From: an uncultured Alphaproteobacteria bacterium
GTDB taxonomy: Bacteria; Pseudomonadota; Alphaproteobacteria; RF32; CAG-239
Assembly: GCA_944390895.1 (NCBI GenBank)
Contig: CALXRQ010000006.1
Coordinates: forward strand, 1-63,189
Reading direction: 5' to 3'
DNA length: 63,189 bases
Part shown: piece after piece, positions 2,287-19,614 of the stretch
Numbering within the stretch: the first letter of the stretch is position 1
How the letters are laid out: every line of letters starts with the position of its first letter
Program-made: the position numbers and the translations under genes
Notes under the pieces: generated by a model
Database searches by the model: none
What the model was told of the DNA's origin: nothing
The model's input: only the letters and a program-made list of their open reading frames with translations

Positions 2287-3192
2287 ATGGTTTGGGTCAT
2301 CAACGGGTTGATATACGGCTTCTTTACGGCACTTTATACGCTGGTTAACCAGCACTATAAAATGAACGGCTATCTTTTGGGCATTTGGCGCGGTTTTGGA
2401 ATCTCGCTGATTTTCTTTCCTTTTCTTTATTTTAATTTTCCGTGGCCGCAGACGGCTTATCATTGGGGAATGCTGGTGCTTCAGGGATTGTGCATCGGTT
2501 ATTATGATTCGCATTTGTTTTTTGCCTCGGCCAACTTCGGTGCAGGAGCGACTTCGCGGGTGATGGCGCTGACAACACTGGTGACTTCGGTTTTTTGGTG
2601 GGCGCTGACGCCGACGGCGTTTTTGCATTTGTTTGACGACGGTTCGGTGTTTATTACGCTGATTTTAATTTTGTTCGGTTTTACTGTCAGCTGCTGGTAT
2701 ATGTTTAAGGATACACTCTCGCGGGCAACGGTAAAATATATGATTCCGGTGATTGTTGCTCTGGCGGTTATGAGTATCATTACCAAGGAACTGGCTGTTC
2801 ACGGTTCCACGGTGTGGCCGGCAATTACGTATTATCTGGTTATTCCGACTTTTGTCAGCGGCTGTTATAATCTGTTTTATTATACGACAACGGAAAAACC
2901 CGGATTTATCGGCTTTTTCAAAAATGTCTTTTCCGGGCGTGCGGCCGGGGTCGGTTTGTATATCATCGCCTTCAGTGCGGCATTGATTACGGCTAAAAAT
3001 ATTGCTTTAAGAATTGCGCCTAATCCCGGGTATGTAATGTGTCTGGTTTTGACGGCGCCGATTTTCGTGTTTTTTTTGAACAAGTATAACAAAGTTCCTG
3101 ACAATGTTTCGGTCAAAGCCGGTTTTTCGATGATTTTTTTCATCGTTTTGCTGATTGTTCTGGTCAACGGAAATTTCGGTGTGGTTGACTAG
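2287..3192 (+). CDS. DMT/EamA-like multi-pass membrane transporter
   Basis: About 10 hydrophobic segments in two similar halves. ATG 2287 follows an AGAGGT RBS (the ORF track starts at 2215). Confidence 0.6.
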   Translation: MVWVINGLIYGFFTALYTLVNQHYKMNGYLLGIWRGFGISLIFFPFLYFNFPWPQTAYHWGMLVLQGLCIGYYDSHLFFASANFGAGATSRVMALTTLVTSVFWWALTPTAFLHLFDDGSVFITLILILFGFTVSCWYMFKDTLSRATVKYMIPVIVALAVMSIITKELAVHGSTVWPAITYYLVIPTFVSGCYNLFYYTTTEKPGFIGFFKNVFSGRAAGVGLYIIAFSAALITAKNIALRIAPNPGYVMCLVLTAPIFVFFLNKYNKVPDNVSVKAGFSMIFFIVLLIVLVNGNFGVVD

Positions 3193-4478
3193 CTGCACAA
3201 ATCTTCGATGATTTTGTTTAAAACCAACCGTCCGCTATCGGTTGCGCGGATGTTGCCGCCGTTGTCTTCGAGCAGTTTTTTTTGAAGCAGAATACGCAGG
3301 TTTTCCCGATTGACGAAAGCGTCGAAATCCATGCCGCAGTTATGTTTGAAACCTTGGCGGCTGATGCCTCTGTTCAGGCGCAGGCCCATTAAGACCAGTT
3401 CTTCCGCCCGCTCTTCCGGCGTAAGTTCTTCCATTATGCAGCGATGGGTCGAGGCAAAGATTTTTCCTTGGCTTTTGATGCGGCCGTGCGCTGCCGGGCC
3501 GATGCCGAGGTAGTCGTTTCCGGTCCAGTATATTTGGTTGTGAACGGATTCAAAACCGGAGCAGGCGTAGTTTGATATTTCATATTGATTGTAATTGCGA
3601 GTACGCAAAAAGGCGTTGGTAAAATCGTACATTTCCGCGGCTGCGTTTTCCTCCAGCGGTTTAACGCCTTTTTTATGAAAAACCGTTCCCTCTTCAATGG
3701 TCAGCTGATACATTGACAGATGTTTAAAGCCGAAAGACGCGGCCTGTTTTATTTCTTCCTGCCATTGTTTTAAGCTTTGTGCGGGGCGGGCATAGATGAG
3801 GTCAATCGAATGGTTGTCAAACAGCTTTAAGACGTCTTCCATGGCCTGATAAGCCTGTTGCAGATTATGCGTGCGGCCGAGGAATTTTAAATCCGCGTCG
3901 TTTAGAGCCTGAATGCCGAGCGAAAGGCGGTTGACGCCGGCGTTTTTCAGGTCTTGAAAAAGTTTCGGTCGGCCGCTGTTCGGATTGGCTTCCAGCGAGA
4001 TTTCGACCTGCTGCGAAAGTTTCCAGCGGCGGGCGATATGATTAATAATTTTTTCAATGTTTTGCGGCGCAATTAAGGACGGTGTGCCGCCGCCGAAAAA
4101 AATGCTGGTGACGCATTGATCTCCCGTATACTGATAATAAAAGTCAAGTTCTTTAAGATAGTCTTCAATAATTTCATCTTGCGGTACGTCTTTTTTGACC
4201 TTGCTGAAAAAATCGCAATACGGGCATTTGCTGAGGCAGTAGGGCCAGTGAATGTAAATTCCAAAGGGTAAATCCGTTTTAAGGGGAAGCTTCGGCAAAA
4301 ATCCGGTGCTCGTGTCCTCACGTACGTTTATGTACGCTGCGGGACTGCGCTCCGTGTTTGTTACCGCATCTTCCTCCTTAAAACGAATTTCTGAAGAGGA
4401 AAGCTTCGGTAAAAATCCGGTGCTCGTGTCCTCACGTACGTTTATGTACACTGCGGGACTGTGTTTCATGTTTGTCAC
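3189..4478 (-). CDS. hemW: Radical SAM heme chaperone HemW (HemN-like) with an N-terminal RPE-like repeat extension
   Basis: YIHWPYCLSKCPYCDF (CxxxCxxC), FFGGGTPS and HNQIYW motifs. Start is uncertain: GTG 4478 lies 8 nt after a perfect TAAGGAGG; alternatives are ATG 4469, TTG 4526, or GTG 4690 if the frameshift at 4525-4528 is repaired. Confidence 0.9.
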   Translation of the reverse strand: MTNMKHSPAVYINVREDTSTGFLPKLSSSEIRFKEEDAVTNTERSPAAYINVREDTSTGFLPKLPLKTDLPFGIYIHWPYCLSKCPYCDFFSKVKKDVPQDEIIEDYLKELDFYYQYTGDQCVTSIFFGGGTPSLIAPQNIEKIINHIARRWKLSQQVEISLEANPNSGRPKLFQDLKNAGVNRLSLGIQALNDADLKFLGRTHNLQQAYQAMEDVLKLFDNHSIDLIYARPAQSLKQWQEEIKQAASFGFKHLSMYQLTIEEGTVFHKKGVKPLEENAAAEMYDFTNAFLRTRNYNQYEISNYACSGFESVHNQIYWTGNDYLGIGPAAHGRIKSQGKIFASTHRCIMEELTPEERAEELVLMGLRLNRGISRQGFKHNCGMDFDAFVNRENLRILLQKKLLEDNGGNIRATDSGRLVLNKIIEDLCS

Positions 4479-4680
4479 CGCGTCTTCCTCCTTAAAACGA
4501 ATTTCTGAAGAAGGAAGCTTCGGCAAAATCCGGTGCTCGTGTCCTCACGTACGTTTATGTACGCTGCGAGACTGCGCTCCGTGTTTGTTACCGCATCTTC
4601 CTCCTTAAAACGAATTTCTGAAGAGGGAAGCTTCGATAAAAGTCCGGTGCTCGCGTCCTCACGTACGTTTATGTACGCTG
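4270..4680. repeat. Tandem array (about 3.5 copies, 114/114/113-bp period) of an RPE1-like palindromic element
   Basis: AAGCTTCG recurs at 4287, 4401, 4515 and 4628. The first unit, 4270-4390, is a full imperfect hairpin (AAATCCGTTTTAAGGGGAAG ... CTTCCTCCTTAAAACGAATTT). Minus-strand translation NTERSPAAYINVREDTSTGFLPKLP resembles the RPE1 peptide. Confidence 0.93.
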
Positions 4681-4690
4681 TATTTTTCAC
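4475..4690 (-). pseudogene. Repeat-encoded 71-aa ORF; frameshifted 5' portion of hemW
   Basis: GTG 4690 follows GGAAAG just after the hslU stop. It translates as RPE-like repeats until the A4 run at 4525-4528 (A5 in copies 1 and 2). Its TGA overlaps GTG 4478 (GTGA). Confidence 0.55.
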
Positions 4691-4709
4691 GCCGTCTTCT
4701 TTCCGGAAA

Positions 4710-6017
4710 CTATAAGATAAATTTGGACAGGTCGGTTGCCTGTGTGAATTTCATCAGTTTTTGCTCAACGAATTCGGCGGTAATAACCTCTTTCTGGCCG
4801 CTGCGGTCAGAAGCGTTGAAGCTGATGTCTTCCAGCAGAATTTCCATGACCGTATGCAATCTGCGGGCACCGATGTTTTCGACATTTTCGTTGATTTCAA
4901 CCGCAATGTCGGCAATCTTGTCGATGGCGGCCTTTTCAAATTCGATGTCAAAATTTTCGGTCTTGAGCAGGGCGGTATATTGTTCAATCAGATTGGCTTC
5001 GGGTTCAGTCAATATACGAACAAAATCTTCATGCGTCAGGGCTTTCAGCTCAACGCGAATCGGCAGTCTTCCCTGCAATTCCGGCAAAAGATCCGAAGGC
5101 TTGGCCAAATGAAAGGCGCCCGAACAAATAAACAGTATGTGGTCGGTTTTAACCATGCCGTATTTGGTCGTGACGGTAGTGCCCTCAATCAGCGGCAACA
5201 GGTCGCGCTGAACGCCTTCTCGGGAGACGTCGCCGCGGGTGTTTTCCGATTTGCCGGTGATTTTATCTATCTCGTCAATAAAAACGATACCGTCGTTTTC
5301 GACCGCTTCAATGGCGGCTTTGACAATCTGGTCATTGTCCAAAAGCTTGTCGCTTTCTTCGGCAATCAGGATGTCGTAAGCTTCGCCGACTTTCATTTTT
5401 TTGGTTTTGTATTTGGTTCCGGAAGCGCCGAGCAGGTCTCCGAGGCTGATCATTCCCATTTGGGCGCCGGGCATGCCGGGGATGTCTATGGTCGGCATTG
5501 AGGCGTTGGAATTGTCCAGCACGCTGATTTCGATTTCCCGGTCATTCAACTGGTTCTCCCGCAGAAGTTTACGAAACTTTTGTTTGGTCTCGTCGCTGGC
5601 ACTCAAGCCGACCAAAGCTTCCAGAACGCGTTCTTCTGCCGCAAGTTCGGCTTTGGCGGTAACGCTTTTGCGCATTTCCTTGCGGGTATTGTTCAAAGCA
5701 ATTTCAACCAAATCGCGGATGATGCTTTCGACGTCTCTTCCGACATAACCGATTTCGGTAAATTTGGTTGCTTCCACCTTTACAAAAGGCGCTTTGGCTA
5801 GTTTTGCCAGCCGGCGCGAAATTTCGGTTTTTCCGACGCCGGTCGGTCCCACCATCAGAATGTTTTTGGGGACGATTTCTTCCCGCAGATGCGCATCTAG
5901 CTGCATTCGCCGCCAGCGATTGCGTAAAGCGACGGCCACAGCCTTTTTGGCTTCGTTTTGGCCAATGATATACCTATCCAGTTCGGAAACAATTTCGCGA
6001 GGACTATAAACTGCCAT
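4710..6017 (-). CDS. hslU: ATP-dependent protease ATPase subunit HslU
   Basis: [14 protein letters not shown] pore loop, DEIDKI, C-terminal DLSKFIL. Confidence 0.98.
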
Positions 6018-6024
6018 TTTAAGA

Positions 6025-6546
6025 CTACACTTTCTCTATGATAACGTTATGATTGGTATAAATATCAATGTCACCGGCAATTTTCATGGCTTTTTGCGCG
6101 ATTTCTTCCAGAGACAACCCTTCTACGTCATATAAGGCTTTGGCCGCCGCCATGGCGTAGTTGCCGCCGGAACCGATGCCGATGATACCGTCGTCGGGCT
6201 CCATGACTTCTCCGGTTCCGTTCAGGACCAGTGACACGTCTTTGTCAGCCACAATCATATAAGCCTGAAGCTGACGCAGATATTTGTCCATCCGCCAGTC
6301 TTTGGCCAGTTCTACCGCGGCGCGTTTAAGTTGGTTGGCGTGTTTTTCAAGTTTGGCCTCCAGACGTTCGATTAAGGTGATGCCGTCGGCTGCGGCGCCG
6401 GCAAAACCGGCAATGATGCTGCCGTTACCGATGCGGCGGACTTTAACCGATTTGGATTTGAAAACGACCGCTTCGCCAAGAGTGGCCTGACCGTCGCCGG
6501 CCATGACCACTTCTTTGCCTTTTCTGATACATAAAATAGTTGTCAT
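6025..6546 (-). CDS. hslV: ATP-dependent protease peptidase subunit HslV
   Basis: N-terminal TTI, AGDGQ, GSGG, DIYTN; adjacent to hslU. Confidence 0.98.
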
Positions 6547-9500
6547 CTATTTTCTTTCTTTTGCACTCATCGCTTTCGGAGCCTTGCTGCCGGTGTAGGT
6601 GTCAATGGCGGTTGAAACGGGTTTTTCAACTGCTTTGACCGCCATCGGGCGTTTGTTGACAAATTTGACTCCGCAAATATTCATACCCAAGCTCTTGAGG
6701 GCGGTTTCAATCGGGATAAACAGGTCGCCGCCTTCGGCCGCGCGAATACCCGAGTGAGACAAACCGGTTATGTTGCCGTTCTTGTCAATCAGGGCGCTGC
6801 CCAGAGTCTGGGTTTGAACATAAGTGTTGACAATGATCTCCGCGCCTTTTTCTTCAGAGTAACGGTAACCGATAACCTGGCCCCCGTTATCTAAATAGTT
6901 CTCGCCTTCGTCAAAGTCAAGCAGACCCAGTGTCATATAAAGGTCTTTGCCGACTTCCGGCAGGTCAAGACGCAACGGCAGAGGTGCAAATTTGGTCTTT
7001 TCGCTGAGAAGAATCAGCGCCACGTTCTTGTTGGGGTTGACGCGGTAGGCCGAACCCTTGAAGTGCATACCGTTGACGGTGCGGATATCAAAGCTGTTCA
7101 AAGACTTGTCAATCAAATCCGCAGAAGTCAGTATCAACTGGTCGGAAATGATCAGACCGGCGCCTTTGCGTCCTTTCGGATTTTCAACCGAAACGACGGA
7201 CGCGCGCAGACGATAGACGTTTTCCGGGGACATGGTATCATAAGGTTTGACACTTTGGATGCAGAAGCTGTTGTTCATGTCGGCAAACATGTTTTCTACA
7301 GCCGCGCGGTTCTGTCTTTCCTGAATGCCGGCGGTCGGATCTGCCGGAATGTCAATCCAGAAGTCATCGGCGTAGGTGATGTTGGAAGCCGCGACTTTGA
7401 GCGTAGAGCAGCCGCTTTCGCCGATGTTTACTTCCGAGCAGTTGTCGTTCATCTTCAGACCGGTCAGGTATTTGTTCTGTCCGGCGTTGAATTTGGACGT
7501 GGTGCCGCTTCTTTCGTCGGTCTGGCTGTAGTAAGCATAGAAACCGCCGTTTTCCTTGATTTCGGATTTGGTAACCATTCGGCAGCTGCTGTCAATGATA
7601 CCGCTGACCGCATAGCCTTTGCCGCGGGCTCCGCCGTTTTCTGAAACATTGGAACCGCTGCTGTGGAATATGCCGCTTTGGTCAATGTAACCCGAGAGTT
7701 TGCGCATCTTGGTGCGGTTGGCGCAGGCCGTAAGCGACAGGCCTTTGGGCAGCAAAATGAAGTCGCCGTATTCGTCTACGTAGCCGTCGGCGTCATAACG
7801 GTTGACGCGGAATTTGCCTGACGTGCCGCCGCGGTCGTCGGTTTTGGTATAGTATGCATAAAAGCCGCCTTTTTCGGCGATGTCAGCCAACGGAACAAGT
7901 TTGCAGCTTTCGTTGACCATACCGGCAACGTTATAGCTGCGTCCGCCGGTACCGCCGCGATCCGTGATTGATGAACCGTCGGCATAGAATACACCTTTTT
8001 CATCAATATAGCCGTATACGGGGTGGAAATTGCCGTCAATCGGGCAGCTGTTGGCAATAGCCTGAGAATCGACGGCAACAAAGTTTCCGCTTTCGTCAAT
8101 GTAGCCTTTGACCTTGTAGTGGTTGCCCGAAGTTCCTCCCTGGCTGCTGATGCCGTTGAAGTAAGCATAGACGCCGCCTTTTTCGGCAATGGTGTCTTTG
8201 TTTTCGATTTTGCACATACCGGTGATGACGGTTGAAACCGGATATTCTTTGTTAGTGTTGTCTTCAACGAATTTTCCGGCTTTGTTGATTTTTCCGGTAA
8301 TGATGTTGGCGTTGATGCCGCAGTTGCTGTCTCCCGCCAGAGCGACAAAACTACCGCTTTCGTCAATGTAGCCTCTGACTTTGGCTGCAACGTTCATTCC
8401 GGTTCCTGAAGTTCCGCCGTTGCCGTCAATGTTGTTCAGGTAAGCGTAAAAACCGCCGTTTTCTTTAATCTCGCGGGTTTCGGTCAATTTGCACATATTG
8501 TTGATAGCACCGGTGATGTTGTATTCTTTGCCGGTGGCCGATTGTACGAATTTACCGTCTTCGCTGATGTAGCCGGTGATTATTTCGCCGCCGACGCTGC
8601 AGAGACCGGCGGTGTTTTCGGTTCCGAGAACGACAACATTGCCGCTTTCGTCAATATAGCCGCTGACTTCGTATCTGCCGGCAACGGGAGCGGTGGCAAC
8701 CACCTGCGAGAAGCTGTCGGCATTTTCTTTGGGATTGATTTCTCCCGAACCGCAGCTTTGCAGCATATTGACGCCGTTCAACTCGGCTTCGTATTGGTTT
8801 TTGAAGTTTACTTTCGATTTTTCAATGGCTTCAACTTTGGCCAACTGCTTTTCGATTTCTTCGGGTTTGACACGTTTGGCCAGTTCGGTGTTGAAGCAGC
8901 CGACTTCGGGCAGTTTGCTCAGAGCGTCGCCGAAGGCGCGTTCAACCAGCAGGGTTTCGCCTTTGTATTCGCCGTCTTTCATTTCACCGTAGCCGGTGGT
9001 GGTACCTTTGCAATATACTTTGTCTTTGGTTAAATCCAGCAGGCGCCAAGTTACGGTCATTTCCGAGGTGCCGGTGCGGAGATTTTGCTTTTTGACGTTG
9101 TTCCAGTCGAATTCATCGCAGACGTTCATGAAATAGTCGGTGATTTCGGCCGTTAAGATATATTCTGCCTGCGCTTTGTCAGAATACATATAATAAGGAT
9201 TGCTTTTTTCGACGACAACCGGATAATTGTCGTTCATGGTCTCAAAGAAGATGTCGAAGAACTTCATGTCCTTCTGCATCGCACGGCCCTGATTCAAATA
9301 TACGTTCTTGTCAAAGCGGCGGCAGCCGAAGATTCTGAAACGATAATTGCCGAGCTTGTCGCTGTAGCCTTCATATTTTCTGCCTTTGGGAATTCTGAAA
9401 TCAACGTATTCAAGTTTTACGGGAGCATAATTGCTGCGGGAGCGGTGCAGATAACCGTAAGCGTTCATCTGGTCAGCCGAAGGATTGACCATTTCTTCGT

Positions 9501-9681
9501 TTTGAATGTAGGCAACGCGTTTGACCGGTTTTTTGCGGCCGGGTTCGCACATGCAGTTGAATAAGCCTAAGGTTTTTTCGGTTCCGTCACACATGCAGGG
9601 AACCAGATCCGGGCTTCTGACCGCGCAGGATACAATCAGCGCCGGAATCAACATTAATTTGAGAGACCGTAAAATTCTCAT
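6547..9681 (-). CDS. Large lipoprotein: N-terminal CsgG-like alpha/beta region, four internal repeats of about 90-105 aa, C-terminal degenerate trypsin-like domain
   Basis: Lipobox LIVSC. Repeats GYIDESG...C...GxI...C...IxExGGFYAY. The C-terminus has the trypsin-2 pattern (SVVSV..GAGLII..LILTSADL; TLGSALIDKNGNITG) but lacks the catalytic His and Ser. Confidence 0.7.
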   Translation of the reverse strand: MRILRSLKLMLIPALIVSCAVRSPDLVPCMCDGTEKTLGLFNCMCEPGRKKPVKRVAYIQNEEMVNPSADQMNAYGYLHRSRSNYAPVKLEYVDFRIPKGRKYEGYSDKLGNYRFRIFGCRRFDKNVYLNQGRAMQKDMKFFDIFFETMNDNYPVVVEKSNPYYMYSDKAQAEYILTAEITDYFMNVCDEFDWNNVKKQNLRTGTSEMTVTWRLLDLTKDKVYCKGTTTGYGEMKDGEYKGETLLVERAFGDALSKLPEVGCFNTELAKRVKPEEIEKQLAKVEAIEKSKVNFKNQYEAELNGVNMLQSCGSGEINPKENADSFSQVVATAPVAGRYEVSGYIDESGNVVVLGTENTAGLCSVGGEIITGYISEDGKFVQSATGKEYNITGAINNMCKLTETREIKENGGFYAYLNNIDGNGGTSGTGMNVAAKVRGYIDESGSFVALAGDSNCGINANIITGKINKAGKFVEDNTNKEYPVSTVITGMCKIENKDTIAEKGGVYAYFNGISSQGGTSGNHYKVKGYIDESGNFVAVDSQAIANSCPIDGNFHPVYGYIDEKGVFYADGSSITDRGGTGGRSYNVAGMVNESCKLVPLADIAEKGGFYAYYTKTDDRGGTSGKFRVNRYDADGYVDEYGDFILLPKGLSLTACANRTKMRKLSGYIDQSGIFHSSGSNVSENGGARGKGYAVSGIIDSSCRMVTKSEIKENGGFYAYYSQTDERSGTTSKFNAGQNKYLTGLKMNDNCSEVNIGESGCSTLKVAASNITYADDFWIDIPADPTAGIQERQNRAAVENMFADMNNSFCIQSVKPYDTMSPENVYRLRASVVSVENPKGRKGAGLIISDQLILTSADLIDKSLNSFDIRTVNGMHFKGSAYRVNPNKNVALILLSEKTKFAPLPLRLDLPEVGKDLYMTLGLLDFDEGENYLDNGGQVIGYRYSEEKGAEIIVNTYVQTQTLGSALIDKNGNITGLSHSGIRAAEGGDLFIPIETALKSLGMNICGVKFVNKRPMAVKAVEKPVSTAIDTYTGSKAPKAMSAKERK

Positions 9682-14098: not shown

Positions 14099-16378
14099 TT
14101 AACCGGCGCAGCTGACACATTCTTCCTTGGCGGCGGAAGAGCCGTCTTTTTGAATGGTGCGGGTATAATAAAGGGTTTTGATGTCTTTTTTCCAGGCGTC
14201 CATTATGGTGTCATAGATGTCTTTGGCACGGATGTCGCGGTTGAGATTATACATCAGTTCGACGGAAATGCCGGTGTCTATCCATTTGTTAATACGGGAC
14301 ATCACTTCAATAATCTTGCGTTGGTCGATATTGCGGTTTTCCTGATAAAACCAAAACTTGTCACGGATATAAGGCGGGCAGTTCGGAATGCTGCCTTTGC
14401 CGTGGGTCTCGACGAAGAACTTGCTGTAAATCGGCAGAACCGAAGCGGTGCAGCCCTGAATGAGAGAGGAACTGGTATTCGGCGCAATAGCGGATATCTG
14501 CGAGTTGCGGATGCCGTATTTGGCAAGGTCGGCAAAAATTTTGTTCCAGCGGTCTTTATATTTGGAATTGGCGTTGAACCATATCTGGCGTTTGCCGAAA
14601 ATCAGGCCTTTGCTCCAATCCGAACCTTCATAGGCGCCGAAAGTTCCTTTTTTTTGCGCGGCGTCAATGCTGGCCTGAATATTGTAAATAGCCATTTTTT
14701 CAAACAAATCGTCTACGAAGTCGGCAGAGTTGATATAGGGAACGTTGTTTTTGGCAAGCATGTCGGCCAGTCCCATAGCGCCAATGCCGATGGTGCGGTA
14801 ACGTTGATTATGCAGGCTGCCTTCGGGAACCGGCACGGTGGTGAAGTCAATGGCGTTGTCCAGAATGCGAACCGAGGTGCGGCAAACGCTTTCCAGTTCC
14901 CGGTCATCGTCAATGTTGGCAAGATTGACGGAAACCAGATTGCAGACGTGTACAAGTCCGTCATAGGCTTCAGAAATTATTTTACCGTCTTCAATGCGTT
15001 TGGGGCTGAATTTGGTCGGGCGGACATTGCTGTGAGATTCGGTGCAGAGGTTGGTGCCGACAATAACGCCATCATGCTTGTTGGGATTATAGCGGTTCAG
15101 GGTGTCTTTGAAGGCAATGTAAGGCATTCCGGTTTCAACCTGAGATTTCATCAGCCGTTTTAACAGCTCTTTGGCATCAACAAACTTAAACATTTCAAGT
15201 TTGCCGAAACCCGCGTCAAAATAAAGCTGATTATAAAGGTTTTCAAACTCTTCTCCCCAAAGGTCGGCAATTTCTCGGCCGTATTTTTCCCGGACTTCGT
15301 GCGGGTCAACCAACAGCCATTTTTCGTTGTTTTCGACTTTTTTCATAAACAAATCGGGGATGACGACCTGAGGGAAAATGTCATAAGCTTTCATGCGCTG
15401 GTCGCCGTTTTCGGTACGGAGTTCAAGAAAGTTTTCAATGTCCAGATGCCACATATCCAGAGATACGGTAACGGCGCCTTTGCGTTTGCCCTGCTGGTTG
15501 ACGGCCACGGCGGTGTCGTTGATAATGCGAATCCAGGGAATGACGCCGCCGGAAGAATTTTTGATGCCTTTGATACGGGCGCCTTTGCAGCGAACGCGCG
15601 AGATGTTGACGCCAACCCCGCCGCCGAATTTGGATATGGCGGAAATCTGGTCGATAACGTAAAAAATCGAATCGCGGTTGTCGTCCATAACAGTAATGAA
15701 ACAGGAACTCAGGTTGCCGTTGGGTCGGCGCAGGTTCATCAGCAGCGGTGTGCCGAGCGAGATTTTGCGGTCGGCAAGTTTTTCATAAGTGTCTTTGACC
15801 TGACTCATGCGAATGCTGCGATCTTCGTTTTGCTCAATCAGCAGAGCAATAGTCAGGAACATTTCCTGCGGCAGCTCGACAATGCGGTCGCCGAATTCGC
15901 AAAGGTAGCGTTTAATGAGCAGATTGATGCCGGCATAATCATAGACCAAATCAAAAGCCGGGTTGATGAATGATGCGGCCTGTTTTATTTCTTCGGGATT
16001 GTATTTTTCGGTGATGACGGGGTCATATACGCCGTTGGCGACGGCAAAATCCAAGAACTTTTCATAGTCGTAGGGAACGGCCTGATTGGTGCGGCGGTCG
16101 TTTTTAACATCTTTATACAAGTCGAAAAGGCGCAGGCGGCCGGCGGCGTTCTTCCAGTCGGGTTCCAGAACCGAGGTCAGATTCAACGCGTTTAGGATAA
16201 GAGCCTTGTTGATTTCGGAAGCCGGCATACCGTTTTTAAAAAAGTTCGGAATCGTTTCCAAAAGTTTGTTTTTATCAAGTTCGAATCCGGCGAGAGCGCG
16301 CTCGACGGTAGCCGTGATTTTAGCCTGGTCAAAGGCCGCTTCAGCACCGTTTCTCTTGGTGATTTTTTGATTTTCCAT
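14099..16378 (-). CDS. nrdA: Class I ribonucleotide reductase alpha subunit with N-terminal ATP cone
   Basis: ITKRNG ATP-cone start, SSCF, NLCTE, VCNL, APNTSSS, TLYY, C-terminal CVSC. Confidence 0.96.
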   Translation of the reverse strand: MENQKITKRNGAEAAFDQAKITATVERALAGFELDKNKLLETIPNFFKNGMPASEINKALILNALNLTSVLEPDWKNAAGRLRLFDLYKDVKNDRRTNQAVPYDYEKFLDFAVANGVYDPVITEKYNPEEIKQAASFINPAFDLVYDYAGINLLIKRYLCEFGDRIVELPQEMFLTIALLIEQNEDRSIRMSQVKDTYEKLADRKISLGTPLLMNLRRPNGNLSSCFITVMDDNRDSIFYVIDQISAISKFGGGVGVNISRVRCKGARIKGIKNSSGGVIPWIRIINDTAVAVNQQGKRKGAVTVSLDMWHLDIENFLELRTENGDQRMKAYDIFPQVVIPDLFMKKVENNEKWLLVDPHEVREKYGREIADLWGEEFENLYNQLYFDAGFGKLEMFKFVDAKELLKRLMKSQVETGMPYIAFKDTLNRYNPNKHDGVIVGTNLCTESHSNVRPTKFSPKRIEDGKIISEAYDGLVHVCNLVSVNLANIDDDRELESVCRTSVRILDNAIDFTTVPVPEGSLHNQRYRTIGIGAMGLADMLAKNNVPYINSADFVDDLFEKMAIYNIQASIDAAQKKGTFGAYEGSDWSKGLIFGKRQIWFNANSKYKDRWNKIFADLAKYGIRNSQISAIAPNTSSSLIQGCTASVLPIYSKFFVETHGKGSIPNCPPYIRDKFWFYQENRNIDQRKIIEVMSRINKWIDTGISVELMYNLNRDIRAKDIYDTIMDAWKKDIKTLYYTRTIQKDGSSAAKEECVSCAG

Positions 16379-17867: not shown

Positions 17868-18689
17868 ATGAAAAAACTTTGCGTCGTTTTGTTGGTTTTG
17901 TTTCTGGCGTCTTGCGGCAAAGACGGTCAACCGCGGGAAGTTTGGATTGAAAATGCGCAGAAAGAAACAATTTATTTGCAGATTGAAGGTAATGAAAATG
18001 CCGACAATAAAAAACTGGCTGTTATTCAGCACGGTCTGGCCTCTAATATGGAGCATCCCGCCGTGCAGACGGTGAAAAAGGCTTTTCGGGATAAGGGTTA
18101 TACGGTTATAACCTTTGACAGCAGATATTCTCTGGGCAAAAGCGACGGCGATGTAATCAATGTCAGGTTATCGGCTTTTGAAGACGATTTGAAAACGGTT
18201 ATCGGCTGGGCCCAAAATCAAAGCTTTTACAGTGAGCCGTTTGCTTTGGCCGGCCATTCTCTGGGCGGGGCTTCCGTGTTGCAATATGCCGCCGAAAATC
18301 CTTCCGCGGTTGATTATGCAGTTCCGGTAACGCCGGTCGTCAGCGGAAAAAGATGGGAAGAGAGCTGCATGGCCAATATGCCTGATTTTTGCAGAAACTG
18401 GAAAAGAAACGGGCATTATGATTACCGGGCGGCCGTCATTCCTTATGAAGTGGTCGAACAGGCCAAGAATTATGATTCTTTGCGGCTGGCAAAGGATATC
18501 AGGGCAAAAGTCCTGCTGGTTACGGCGGAAGACGACAACGTTATTGAGCCTAAAGATGTGAAGGAGCTTTATGATGCGCTTCAAACGAAAAAGTCTCTGG
18601 GCGTAATCTCTGACGGGGGACATAATTTTACGACCGAACAAAGCCGTCGGCAGTTGTATGATTTGGTAACGGATTTTTTATCTAAATGA
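17868..18689 (+). CDS. Alpha/beta-hydrolase lipoprotein
   Basis: LASC lipobox, HG oxyanion motif, GHSLGG nucleophile elbow, EDD and GGH triad positions. Confidence 0.85.
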   Translation: MKKLCVVLLVLFLASCGKDGQPREVWIENAQKETIYLQIEGNENADNKKLAVIQHGLASNMEHPAVQTVKKAFRDKGYTVITFDSRYSLGKSDGDVINVRLSAFEDDLKTVIGWAQNQSFYSEPFALAGHSLGGASVLQYAAENPSAVDYAVPVTPVVSGKRWEESCMANMPDFCRNWKRNGHYDYRAAVIPYEVVEQAKNYDSLRLAKDIRAKVLLVTAEDDNVIEPKDVKELYDALQTKKSLGVISDGGHNFTTEQSRRQLYDLVTDFLSK

Positions 18690-18720
18690 AAAAAAGCGGC
18701 GTTTAAAAACGCCGCTTTTT
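18689..18720. terminator. Bidirectional terminator
   Basis: AAAAAAAGCGGCGTTT-aa-AAACGCCGCTTTTT between convergent genes. Confidence 0.85.
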
Positions 18721-18723
18721 AAT

Positions 18724-19614
18724 TCAGGCCTTGTTCGGAAGTTTGGAATATATCCAGTCGCTCAGGCAATTGGGCAATACGGACACCAGCCAGACTGCGA
18801 GGCGAAGCTGCCAGGGGAAAGCAATAATGCCTTTATTTTCGGCGATGCCCCGGGCAATGATGGCAGCGGCCTGTTCCGCCTCCATGAAAAACGGCATCGG
18901 ACAGGTGTTTTGGTCGGTAATGCGCGAACGGACAAAGCCAGGGCAGATGACGCTGACTTTGATGCCGTTTTTCTTCAGTCTGGGACGCAGGGCTTCTCCC
19001 CAGGCTTTGACGCAGGCTTTGCTGGCGCTGTAGGCCGGGCAGGTCGGCAGGCCGTGATAGCCGGCCATGGAACTGACAATGGCAATGCTGCGGTTGTCTT
19101 CGTGAAAGAATTCGACGCCGGATCTGCCAAAGCGGATGCGGTCCCAAAACGGAACGTAAAAAGCTTTTTTCTGCTTTTTCTTTTGAGAAATAAACTTGTC
19201 CAGCGAGCTCATGCCGTCGTTTTGAGCGCTGATGCGATTTTGATAGATGTCGATTGTCGGCAGGACAGTGTTTAAAACGCCGTTGACGTTGGTGGCAAAG
19301 GTCCGGTAAACCGAATCGGTGTCTTCGTTAACGGTGCCGATGCCGGCGTTGGCAATGACCAAATTAAGTTTGGCGGTTTTGTCGCATTCGCGAATCCAGT
19401 CTTCCGCGGTCCGGCGATCGGTAACGTCTATAATGCGGGGAAAAACCACCGTGCCTAATTTTTCGCATTTGGCGGCAACGATTTTAAGACGGTCTTCGTT
19501 GCGTCCGCAGATGAACAGGTTTTTTGCGACGGTGCCGGCGTAGTGCAGCGCCAGAGCCTCGCCAATGCCGGAGGTTGCGCCGGTAATCAGAATGTTTTGG
19601 TTGCGTTGGGCCAT
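18724..19614 (-). CDS. Short-chain dehydrogenase/reductase
   Basis: ITGATSGIG, NAG, SS, YSASK and PGFV motifs; ATG 19614 follows an AAGGAAAG RBS. Confidence 0.9.
   Translation of the reverse strand: MAQRNQNILITGATSGIGEALALHYAGTVAKNLFICGRNEDRLKIVAAKCEKLGTVVFPRIIDVTDRRTAEDWIRECDKTAKLNLVIANAGIGTVNEDTDSVYRTFATNVNGVLNTVLPTIDIYQNRISAQNDGMSSLDKFISQKKKQKKAFYVPFWDRIRFGRSGVEFFHEDNRSIAIVSSMAGYHGLPTCPAYSASKACVKAWGEALRPRLKKNGIKVSVICPGFVRSRITDQNTCPMPFFMEAEQAAAIIARGIAENKGIIAFPWQLRLAVWLVSVLPNCLSDWIYSKLPNKA

What the first reader, a model, noticed from the sequence alone, without database searches (positions are those of the whole stretch)
4270..4680. Tandemly amplified RPE1-like palindromic element translated as the N-terminus of HemW
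Seen: about 3.5 near-identical units of 114 bp (38 codons) sit between hslU and the HemW core. The HemW-proximal unit (4270-4390) is a complete imperfect hairpin of about 120 bp, and the units read in frame as EEDAVTNTERSPAAYINVREDTSTGFLPKLP. Established: Rickettsia palindromic elements (RPE1) are roughly 150-bp selfish hairpins that insert in frame into ORFs, and from memory their peptide contains NTERSTAAY..VRED.STG...KLP. Inference: this is an RPE1 relative in a genome that looks more GC-rich than Rickettsia and carries cysK and tyrA. It occurs as a head-to-tail array rather than the dispersed single copies I know of, so it would be creating a new repeat protein domain.
Basis: partly seen in the sequence, partly recalled or inferred. 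Interest (0 to 1): 0.85.

Follow-up and report, generated by a model that had tools for sequence, protein, structure and literature searches.

The report
Tandem RPE1-type palindromes heading hemW
A hairpin-forming selfish DNA element of the kind known from Rickettsia sits, copied head to tail 3.5 times, at the start of the heme-chaperone gene hemW of an uncultured gut alphaproteobacterium, and relatives carry one to five in-frame copies at the same spot.

Summary
Window 4284-4680 is a 114-bp tandem repeat of 3.5 copies. It lies between hslU and the HemW core. The HemW-proximal copy is a complete hairpin (MFE -56.3 kcal/mol, z -8.8).

The RPE1 reading also holds. The peptide passes NCBIfam TIGR01045 (37.9 bits for one unit, 60-66.6 for two, cut-off 30). 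The central 57 nt are 45-47/57 identical to dispersed copies in an unnamed 0.9-Mb genome of the class.

Two corrections are needed:
- Unit 3 lacks one base (A4 run, 4525-4528). Only the two proximal units are in frame with hemW; the distal 1.5 units form a separate 71-aa ORF.
- Conservation acts on the nucleic acid, not the peptide. Across 13 genomes, 22 of 36 stem pairs covary. Third codon positions are the most conserved.

The host is a 47% GC, 1.68-Mb gut alphaproteobacterial MAG. Relatives carry 0 to 5 units at the same position, nearly all in frame. Related elements form tandem arrays elsewhere in this genome, and lie in frame in truA and prfC of relatives. I rate this a new variant of a known kind. 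Translation is not shown.

The parts
4284..4680 (-). Tandem array of an RPE1-type palindromic element, 3.5 units of 114 bp
   Evidence: TRF period 114, 3.5 copies, 90% matches. TIGR01045 scores 60-66.6 bits.
4284..4397 (-). Unit 1 (hemW-proximal), in frame with hemW
   Evidence: TIGR01045 scores 37.9 bits for this unit alone, cut-off 30. 41.9 bits in the genome scan.
4270..4390 (.). The only complete hairpin: unit 1 plus its 3' terminal arm
   Evidence: Arms 4270-4284 and 4376-4390 are 93% complementary. MFE -56.3, z -8.8.
4398..4511 (-). Unit 2, in frame with hemW, 92% identical to unit 1. It is the only unit with GTG where the others have GTA.
   Evidence: TIGR01045 scores 27.0 bits for this unit alone.
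4512..4624 (-). Unit 3, 113 bp, 98% identical to unit 1 but out of frame with hemW
4525..4528 (.). Run of four A where units 1 and 2 have five: the 1-nt deletion that splits the reading frame
   Evidence: Sequence and unit lengths. A 135-nt contig of run X1 covers it without a gap.
4625..4680 (-). Unit 4, partial, from the loop onward
4475..4690 (-). 71-aa ORF made only of element sequence (units 4, 3 and the start of 2). Its GTG start lies 20 nt after the hslU stop.
   Evidence: TIGR01045 scores 59.8 bits. In the closest relative, G003, the same GTG heads an uninterrupted hemW frame.
4475..4493 (-). AAGGAGG (4487-4493), an 8-nt spacer, then GTG (4476-4478) in the hemW frame. The GTG overlaps the TGA stop (4475-4477) of the 71-aa ORF. 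This is a candidate coupled restart site.
   Evidence: Read from the sequence. A conspecific protein cluster, P0001 (429 aa, 39 members), is called from this GTG.
3189..4526 (-). hemW, the longest ORF from TTG 4526 (445 aa). It is 429 aa from GTG 4478 and 369 aa from TTG 4298. The core begins near 4271.
   Evidence: TIGR00539 HemW scores 292 bits, cut-off 205.4. Radical_SAM and HemN_C are found. AF2 core pLDDT > 90.
4710..6017 (-). hslU, the upstream gene. The hslU-hemW order is conserved in relatives.
   Evidence: ORF. tblastn synteny in relatives.

Best explanation
What it is (shown): a palindromic, non-autonomous DNA element of the RPE1 type. It entered the first codons of hemW in an ancestor of a clade of gut Alphaproteobacteria and has stayed at one position. 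Its loop lies 48-63 nt before the HemW core in every carrier.

What is conserved (shown): the nucleic acid. A 57-nt core and the complementarity of the outer arms are kept. The 'RPE1 peptide' is the read-out of that core in the one frame that lacks stop codons.

How the array formed (inferred): the element, minus its 3' arm, was duplicated head to tail by unequal recombination or replication slippage. Partial units and 20-30-nt flanking direct repeats at other copies fit this. The process ran independently in several lineages with unit lengths of 114, 120, 123, 144 and 150 bp, all multiples of three.

History in this genome (inferred): the lineage went from 1.5 units, as in its sister G003, to 3.5 units. 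A 1-nt deletion in unit 3 then cut the frame.

Expression (inferred): hemW is now most likely translated from the GTG in unit 2. That GTG has AAGGAGG 8 nt upstream and overlaps the stop of the 71-aa upstream ORF. The product would be HemW with a roughly 70-residue disordered N-terminal tail of about 1.6 units. The tail is tolerated rather than functional.
For: Identity:
- TIGR01045 is passed at 37.9-66.6 bits against a cut-off of 30.
- The core is 45-47/57 nt identical, ungapped, to eight copies in G404, while the flanks are about 50% identical.
- In a class-wide sample only G000 and G404 pass the cut-off (2 of 401). None of the 14 control genomes do.

Hairpin:
- z -8.8 for the proximal unit.
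- In 13 genomes, 22 of 36 pairs show compensatory change. 91.8% of cells pair against 75.4% in shuffles. Covariation is 0.477 against 0.178 (0 of 500 shuffles reach it). Slid controls reach at most 0.113.

Constraint on DNA rather than peptide:
- Invariant core columns number 10, 7 and 15 of 20 at codon positions 1, 2 and 3.
- Variable codons among units are 4 synonymous against 13 non-synonymous.
- A conspecific HemW, P0001, differs at 7 of the first 60 residues and at 0 of the 369 core residues.

Old, fixed site:
- The loop motif lies at -48 to -63 nt in all carriers.
- The 13 carriers among 86 HemW rows need 7 changes on the tree. Shuffled labels need 12.4 on average, and 0 of 500 shuffles are as low. 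11 of the 13 fall in one 32-row clade.
- 'Empty' same-genus leaders still share a 10-mer with the unit; 27 of 5000 shuffles reach that length.

Recurrent amplification:
- Relatives carry 1, 3 and 5 units (L050, L048, L047), 1.5 units (G003, L049) and at least 3 units (L058).
- Within this genome there are 22 units at 11 loci, 6 of them arrays, plus two more divergent arrays found by TRF.

Translation:
- The RPE1 frame has no stops in the hemW arrays of L047, L048 and G003.
- In the intergenic arrays on C41 and C26 it has one stop per unit, and on C50 three stops in about 1.7 units.
- L047, L048 and L050 keep an ATG with the same first three codons as element-free relatives, placed upstream of the array.
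- P0001 is called from the unit-2 GTG.
- Residues 1-84 have pLDDT < 50.
Against: - No RNA or protein data were available, so translation of any unit is not shown.
- The frame with no stops is a property of the element, and the arrays look young. Open frames could therefore persist for a while without selection.
- Intergenic arrays in this genome also mostly have periods divisible by three (6 of 8 spacings). Unit length alone is therefore not evidence for coding.
- The gene call behind P0001 is a program's choice, not evidence of expression.
- The tree is a quick single-gene tree. Its starred branches force at least 3 changes, so repeated insertion at a hot spot is not excluded.
- G404 is unnamed. 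I could not align against a named Rickettsia RPE-1.
- The copy number of 3.5 rests on a short-read MAG assembly. No contig in four runs spans the array.
Confidence: 0.72

Rival explanations
1. The array is not translated. It is an intercistronic RNA or DNA structure between hslU and hemW, for example a 3' stabiliser of the hslVU message, a processing site or a translational attenuator. On this reading hemW starts at the TTG at the end of unit 1 (4296-4298) or at another internal start. The open frame is a by-product of the element's composition.
For: - The hairpin is maintained by covariation, and third codon positions are the most conserved. Both point to a nucleic-acid-level constraint.
- The other arrays of the family in this genome lie just after the 3' ends of genes and are not open in the RPE1 frame. 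This resembles REP-type elements.
- Each unit carries an in-frame TTG.
- The frameshift in unit 3 is tolerated.
Against: - There is no Rfam match (0 hits at E <= 1).
- No terminator-like site was found on the coding (-) strand in 3100-6700. All 4 sites found are on the + strand, against 6.7 expected.
- In L047, L048 and L050 an ATG with the same first codons as in element-free relatives sits upstream of the array, with the frame open through 1, 3 and 5 units.
- In relatives the same element family sits inside truA, and a reverse-orientation copy sits in the hemW core of G018. There it must be translated if those genes work.
- The TTG at 4298 has no Shine-Dalgarno-like motif at a usual distance (sequence).
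Confidence: 0.22
2. The array is a contingency (phase-variable) locus. Changes in copy number, and slippage in the A/T run of each unit, would switch the length or the translation of HemW on and off.
For: - Copy number differs between close relatives.
- The only indel among the units lies in a homopolymer run.
- Contigs of other runs show different bases at unit junctions (4398, 4400, 4410, 4636, 4637, 4642).
Against: - A run of 4-5 bases is short for slippage-driven switching.
- No run showed both run lengths: no insertion or deletion is listed.
- HemW is a cytoplasmic housekeeping protein, and no reason for switching it is known.
- A restart codon makes the frameshift largely silent.
Confidence: 0.04
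3. The array is an assembly artefact: one unit was duplicated by the assembler.
For: - The genome is a short-read MAG.
- Logan's contigs break inside the repeat, and none spans it.
- A relative's array contains a scaffold gap of Ns (L058).
Against: - The units differ by specific substitutions.
- Every unit junction is present in exact contigs of run X1 (pieces 4370-4440, 4420-4554, 4533-4626 and 4597-5100).
- Independent MAGs from other species carry arrays of 1.5, 3 and 5 units at the same site.
- Proteins with 2-2.5 units are in public gene calls (P0008, P0011, P0013).
Confidence: 0.02

Closest known systems
Rickettsia palindromic element RPE-1 (Ogata and co-workers; NCBIfam TIGR01045)
   Same: - It is an imperfect palindrome of 100-150 bp.
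- It inserts in frame into housekeeping ORFs.
- It has the same conserved peptide and DNA core.
- The encoded segment lies outside the fold of the host protein.
- PMC10969869 and PMC3767692 (passages read) describe RPEs as about 100-150 bp, often in frame in ORFs, and solvent-exposed.
   Different: - The host is a 47% GC gut alphaproteobacterium, not Rickettsia or Wolbachia.
- Copy number is low: 22 units at 11 loci here. G404 has at least 41 dispersed copies, and 728 RPEs are reported in R. felis (PMC1166351, passage read).
- More than half of the loci are head-to-tail arrays.
- The outer arms are unrelated to those of the G404 copies.
- Four papers matched the words 'Rickettsia palindromic element' and 'tandem'. 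In the three I read passages of (PMC1166351, PMC1950309, PMC10969869), 'tandem' was not applied to RPEs.
[quoted passage not shown]
   Same: Both are tandemly repeated coding sequences with dyad symmetry. Copy number varies within ORFs.
   Different: - There is no sequence relation. Pfam and NCBIfam scans of this protein list no DUF285 or TIGR02167 hit.
- PARCELs are amphipathic, structured repeats, mostly in membrane or surface proteins. Here the product is a disordered tail on a cytoplasmic radical-SAM protein.
REP / BIME-type extragenic palindromes
   Same: Both are hairpin units clustered just after the 3' ends of genes, as in the other arrays of this genome on C41, C26, C23 and C50.
   Different: - REPs are 20-40 bp (PMC3733652, abstract seen) and extragenic. 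These units are 102-126 bp and also sit in frame in ORFs.
- One Y1 transposase gene exists in the genome (C29). It lies at a contig end with no element beside it, and no link to the elements is shown.
MITEs that fuse in frame with host ORFs (review PMC10969869, passages read)
   Same: Both are non-autonomous, have inverted-repeat ends and can make in-frame fusions.
   Different: - No short target-site duplication is seen at hemW.
- Where direct repeats flank a copy (20 nt in C32, about 30 nt in G018), they are long, and in G018 they include element sequence. They look like partial tandem duplication.

Membership tests
RPE1 (TIGR01045, palindromic element RPE1 domain) | The encoded peptide scores above the curated cut-off of the family model (30 bits) | tested here: met
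   - 66.6 bits for units 1+2 and 59.8 bits for the 71-aa ORF.
- 37.9 bits for unit 1 alone and 27.0 bits for unit 2 alone.
- 41.9 bits in the genome scan.
RPE1 (TIGR01045, palindromic element RPE1 domain) | An imperfect palindrome of about 100-150 bp that can fold as a hairpin | tested here: met
   - MFE -56.3, z -8.8.
- Hairpins in 15 of 15 proximal elements folded.
- 22 of 36 pairs show compensatory change.
RPE1 (TIGR01045, palindromic element RPE1 domain) | Nucleotide similarity to accepted RPE-1 copies | tested here: inconclusive
   The core is 45-47/57 nt identical to eight copies in G404, which themselves score 40-44 bits on TIGR01045. G404 is unnamed, the arms do not align, and no named Rickettsia sequence could be compared.
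RPE1 (TIGR01045, palindromic element RPE1 domain) | Inserted in an ORF without breaking the frame | tested here: met
   - The frame is open from an upstream start through the element(s) in G003, G011, G005, L047-L051, L068, L094, L125 and L128-L130.
- In this window only units 1-2 are in frame; unit 3 has a frameshift.
RPE1 (TIGR01045, palindromic element RPE1 domain) | Many dispersed copies in the genome | tested here: not met
   - The 114-bp unit occurs only at this locus at 92% identity or more.
- The wider family has 22 units at 11 loci, 6 of them tandem arrays.
- TIGR01045 hits nothing else in the genome.
RPE1 (TIGR01045, palindromic element RPE1 domain) | The host is Rickettsia (or Rickettsiales) | tested here: not met
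   - 47.2% GC and 1.68 Mb.
- The nearest records are gut MAGs labelled uncultured Alphaproteobacteria, CAG:495 and Ca. Scatocola. NCBI places Ca. Scatocola in Rhodospirillales.
PARCEL (DUF285 / TIGR02167) | A match to the family's HMM | tested here: not met
   Neither model appears in the Pfam or NCBIfam scans at E <= 1.
HemW (TIGR00539), for the host gene | A score above the equivalog cut-off, plus the radical-SAM CxxxCxxC motif | tested here: met
   292 bits against 205.4. C97, C101 and C104 are invariant in 27 sequences.

The most novel reading that the evidence does not exclude
RPE1 may not be a Rickettsia peculiarity. It may be a widespread alphaproteobacterial nucleic-acid element whose 57-nt core is kept by an unknown, conserved machinery or function. 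In gut Alphaproteobacteria it would spread mainly by in-place tandem amplification rather than by dispersal. That would repeatedly add variable-length, translated repeat tails to housekeeping proteins (HemW, TruA, RF3), giving a live view of repeat-protein birth from selfish DNA.
Probability: 0.35. Interest if true: 0.8.

Novelty: new variant of a known kind. Interest (0 to 1): 0.66.

Why it matters
RPEs are the textbook case of selfish DNA living inside protein-coding genes. In the papers I could read they are treated as a feature of Rickettsia and Wolbachia (PMC3767692, PMC10969869).

This locus extends the picture in three ways:
- The same core is present in free-living-sized genomes of gut commensals.
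- The element can grow by head-to-tail amplification, with copy number differing between sister species.
- The conserved 'domain' is a shadow of a conserved nucleic-acid structure.

It also offers a tractable comparative series for two questions: how proteins tolerate and perhaps recruit such inserts, and what maintains the core. The series consists of orthologous hemW 5' ends with 0, 0.5, 1, 1.5, 3, 3.5 and 5 units.

There is a practical point as well. Gene callers and TIGR01045-based naming will treat these N-termini inconsistently.

Tried and rejected
- Rfam at E <= 1 over 3000-6200 gave nothing.
- The promoter and terminator scan gave no terminator-like site on the coding strand near the array.
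- phmmer of the 85-aa two-unit peptide against 1.84 billion representatives gave 9 hits. Six of them (P0006, P0007, P0009, P0010, P0012, P0014) are unrelated repeat proteins matched through repetitiveness, and I set them aside after reading them. Only P0008, P0011 and P0013 are HemW N-termini with 2-2.5 units. This search therefore says little about spread.
- The word-indexed protein search of residues 1-85 gave only 5 proteins, all HemW.
- Read laying returned contigs only. No contig spans the array. Runs X2 and X9 have no cover over about 4474-4596. I draw no conclusion on copy number in other samples.
- I looked for a purifying-selection signal among units of L047, L048 and L050 and found none.
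- I looked for a mobilising enzyme. There is one Y1 transposase hit (C29), and no link to the elements could be made.
- I considered that the 22-nt repeat flanking the L050 element is a target-site duplication. I rejected this because the 3' copy lies inside the hairpin, so it is a partial extra unit.
- Literature searches for TIGR01045 (0 papers) and for 'RPE1 domain', 'palindromic element RPE1', 'RPE-1 family' or 'RPE-like' (mostly retinal papers) found no report of RPE1 outside Rickettsiales. The searches found no report of tandem RPE arrays either. Ogata's original papers are not in the searchable library, and supplements were closed, so an earlier mention cannot be excluded.
Full report
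**1. The observation**

Tandem Repeats Finder reports one long-period repeat in the window: 4284-4680, period 114, 3.5 copies, 90% matches, score 682.

Cutting the array gives four units:
- u1, 4284-4397, 114 bp
- u2, 4398-4511, 114 bp
- u3, 4512-4624, 113 bp
- u4, 4625-4680, 56 bp, beginning at the loop

u3 is 98% and u2 92% identical to u1.

The array lies on the coding (-) strand between hslU (4710-6017) and the HemW core. HemW matches TIGR00539 at 292 bits (cut-off 205.4), and Radical_SAM and HemN_C are found.

The proximal unit with its 3' arm (4266-4394, - strand) folds at -56.3 kcal/mol. Shuffles average -27.9; z is -8.8 and 0 of 200 shuffles fold as well. The two internal units fold less well (z -1.7 and -4.0) because their 3' arm is replaced by the next unit.

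One point of the description fails. u3 has four A at 4525-4528 where u1 and u2 have five. As a result:
- The hemW frame is open only to about 4545.
- The longest hemW ORF starts at TTG 4526 (445 aa).
- u4, u3 and the head of u2 form a separate 71-aa ORF, 4475-4690.

**2. Is it RPE1?**

Peptide evidence from TIGR01045 (cut-off 30 bits):

| Query | Bits |
|---|---|
| Units 1+2 | 66.6 |
| 71-aa ORF | 59.8 |
| u1 alone | 37.9 |
| u2 alone | 27.0 |

In a sample of 401 genomes of the class, 7 have a hit at E <= 0.001. One of these is the unpublished G110, which I did not use otherwise. Only 2 pass the cut-off: this genome and G404. None of the 14 control genomes has a hit.

G404 is an unnamed 0.9-Mb genome with at least 41 dispersed copies of 142-144 nt that are 94-98% identical.

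At the DNA level, a 57-nt core of u1 is 45-47/57 identical, without gaps, to eight G404 copies. The flanking arms are about 50% identical.

So the peptide test is met and the core is shared. A comparison with a named Rickettsia copy was not possible.

**3. The host and the family**

The genome has 1.68 Mb in 56 contigs and 47.2% GC.

Records with related HemW are gut and rumen MAGs. They are labelled uncultured Alphaproteobacteria, Proteobacteria bacterium CAG:495 and Candidatus Scatocola faecipullorum. NCBI files Ca. Scatocola under Rhodospirillales.

Runs holding the stretch are mostly chicken-gut metagenomes: 19 holders in 9 studies.

**4. The same site in relatives**

The hslU-hemW order is conserved.

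Within the genus:
- Nine genomes have 57-63 nt between hslU and the core, and a 17-residue leader.
- The sister genome G003 (HemW 94% identical) has 1.5 units, all in frame. Its frame starts at the same GTG that here heads the 71-aa ORF.
- G011 has one unit in frame from an ATG.
- G005 has one decayed unit.

Among 80 further records, 11 carry the loop motif upstream of the core, always 48-63 nt before it:
- L050, L048 and L047 have 1, 3 and 5 units of 120 bp. All are in frame from an ATG whose first three codons match those of the element-free leaders.
- L049 has 1.5 units of 123 bp.
- L058 has at least 3 units, with a scaffold gap.
- L051, L059, L068 and L094 have 0.5-1.5 units.

TIGR01045 gives 113.8 bits in 5 stretches for L047 and 69.2 bits in 3 stretches for L048.

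On a quick tree of 86 HemW cores, the 13 carriers need 7 changes. Shuffled labels need 12.4 on average, and 0 of 500 shuffles are as low. Starred branches force at least 3 changes, and 11 of the 13 carriers lie in one 32-row clade.

The 'empty' leaders of the genus share a 10-nt word with the unit, in the right place. Only 27 of 5000 shuffles reach that length. This hints that they are deletion remnants.

I read all this as one old insertion, several losses and several independent amplifications. Repeated insertion at a hot spot is not excluded.

**5. What is conserved**

Thirteen proximal elements from thirteen genomes were aligned. Their outer arms differ between lineages yet stay complementary.

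| Measure | Observed | Control |
|---|---|---|
| Predicted pairs with compensatory change | 22 of 36 | n/a |
| Cells paired | 91.8% | 75.4% in shuffles |
| Covariation score | 0.477 | 0.178 in shuffles; 0 of 500 reach it |
| Covariation score, slid controls | n/a | at most 0.113 |

Further points:
- In the 60-nt core, invariant columns number 10, 7 and 15 of 20 at codon positions 1, 2 and 3. This is the reverse of what peptide-level selection gives.
- Among the units of L047, L048 and L050, variable columns fall 11/7/9 by codon position. There are 4 synonymous against 13 non-synonymous variable codons.
- A conspecific HemW (P0001, a cluster of 39 sequences) differs from this one at 7 of the first 60 residues and at none of the 369 core residues.
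- AlphaFold2, run with 27 aligned sequences, gives pLDDT < 50 and no secondary structure for residues 1-84, and > 90 for most of the core.

The constraint is therefore on the nucleic acid. The peptide is tolerated.

**6. Is it translated?**

For translation:
- The RPE1 frame has no stop in the hemW arrays of L047, L048 and G003. Both other frames have stops in every unit.
- In the intergenic arrays of this genome on C41 and C26, the same frame has one stop per unit. On C50 it has three stops in about 1.7 units.
- In relatives the family also sits in frame near the N-terminus of TruA (one unit in G077, two tandem units in G074) and of RF3 (G013).
- A reverse-orientation copy sits inside the HemW core of G018. 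There it must be read through if those genes work.

In this window the best start for hemW is the GTG at 4476-4478:
- It is in frame.
- It is preceded by AAGGAGG with an 8-nt spacer.
- It overlaps the TGA of the 71-aa ORF (sequence).
- P0001 is called from exactly this codon.

Against translation:
- There are no expression data.
- The arrays are young.
- Periods divisible by three are also common among the intergenic arrays (6 of 8 spacings).

I put translation of units 1-2 here at a little over one half, and translation of the intact arrays in relatives somewhat higher.

**7. The array form is the rule here**

A nucleotide profile finds 22 units at 11 loci in the genome:
- Six loci are arrays: C6 with 4 units, C22, C26 and C41 with 3 each, and C33 and C50 with 2 each.
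- Five are single units: C11, C28, C32, C34 and C40.

TRF adds two more divergent arrays, on C23 (102 bp x 2.9) and C32 (122 bp x 2.3).

Most lie just after the 3' ends of genes.

A copy inside a 665-aa ORF on C32 is flanked by a 20-nt direct repeat. The copy inside G018 hemW has a repeat of about 30 nt that includes element sequence. L050 has a 22-nt repeat whose 3' copy lies inside the hairpin. These partial extra units fit slippage or unequal exchange as the amplifying process. That process is inferred, not shown.

In G404, by contrast, none of the 41 listed full copies is head to tail with another full copy. Only 40 of 231 candidates were scored.

**8. Assembly**

Exact contigs of run X1 cover every unit junction, including the four-A run (135-nt piece, 4420-4554). 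No contig spans the array, and X1 may be the source sample. Independent MAGs with arrays at the same site make an artefact unlikely as an explanation of the phenomenon. The exact copy number here still needs long reads.

**9. Comparison and novelty**

The closest known thing is RPE-1 of Rickettsia. The papers I could read (passages of PMC10969869, PMC3767692 and PMC1166351) describe RPEs as follows:
- They are dispersed palindromes of 100-150 bp.
- They are often in frame in ORFs.
- They are found in Rickettsia and Wolbachia.

Searches found no report of tandem RPE arrays or of RPE1 in other orders. Ogata's original papers and all supplements were out of reach.

PARCEL elements (PMC2996958, passages read) are tandem palindromic coding repeats, but they are unrelated in sequence and encode structured amphipathic repeats.

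I class the finding as a new variant of a known kind. It has the same core element, but a new host group, a new mode of growth (in-place tandem amplification with copy-number variation between species) and clear evidence that the constraint is at the nucleic-acid level.

Noticed in passing
G000 contigs outside the window: C41 6951-7294, C26 11229-11575, C23 22691-22985, C32 7837-8121, C22 about 18669-18988, C50 5735-5925, C33 10425-10604: These are further tandem arrays (2-3 units of 102-126 bp) of related hairpin units with the loop motif ACGTAC-N6-GTACG. Most start within about 15 nt of the stop codon of the upstream gene. They are not open in the RPE1 frame.
   Followed up: partly
G000 C32 13926-15920 (-), element at about 14482-14579: A 665-aa ORF holds one element in the reverse orientation, read through in frame. 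It is flanked by a 20-nt direct repeat that duplicates seven residues of the protein.
   Followed up: partly
L030 (G018, another genus) about 2290-2465: hemW carries a second kind of insertion: a reverse-orientation element in frame inside the C-terminal half of the core, after SAHGRL. It has a direct repeat of about 30 nt and folds at -70.7 kcal/mol.
   Followed up: partly
L126 (G077), L133 (G074), L127 (G013:C98), L132 (G039:C16): RPE1-like units lie in frame near the N-terminus of TruA (one unit, and two tandem units of 41 codons) and of release factor 3. There is also an array of at least 3 units of 42 codons in an ORF cut by Ns.
   Followed up: partly
L027/L059 and L109 (hslU-hemW gap); L051 (Ca. 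Scatocola faecipullorum record): Small nuclease-like ORFs sit in the same gap next to element remnants. In two genomes the ORF looks GIY-YIG-like. In L051 it looks DUF559-like, and its frame runs on into the element and hemW (205 open codons). The family names are my reading of the sequences and were not scanned.
   Followed up: no
G000 C29 24683-24955 (contig end): This is the only Y1 (IS200/RAYT-type) transposase match in the genome (83.1 bits). No element was detected beside it.
   Followed up: partly
All arrays of the family: Unit lengths are nearly always multiples of three. All seven in-ORF cases are (114, 120, 123, 123, 126, 144, 150). So are 6 of 8 intergenic spacings in this genome. 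This is unexplained for the intergenic ones.
   Followed up: no
window 6547-9681 (-): A 1044-aa ORF downstream of hslV has several internal repeats of a motif around GYIDESG...V, seen in the translation.
   Followed up: no
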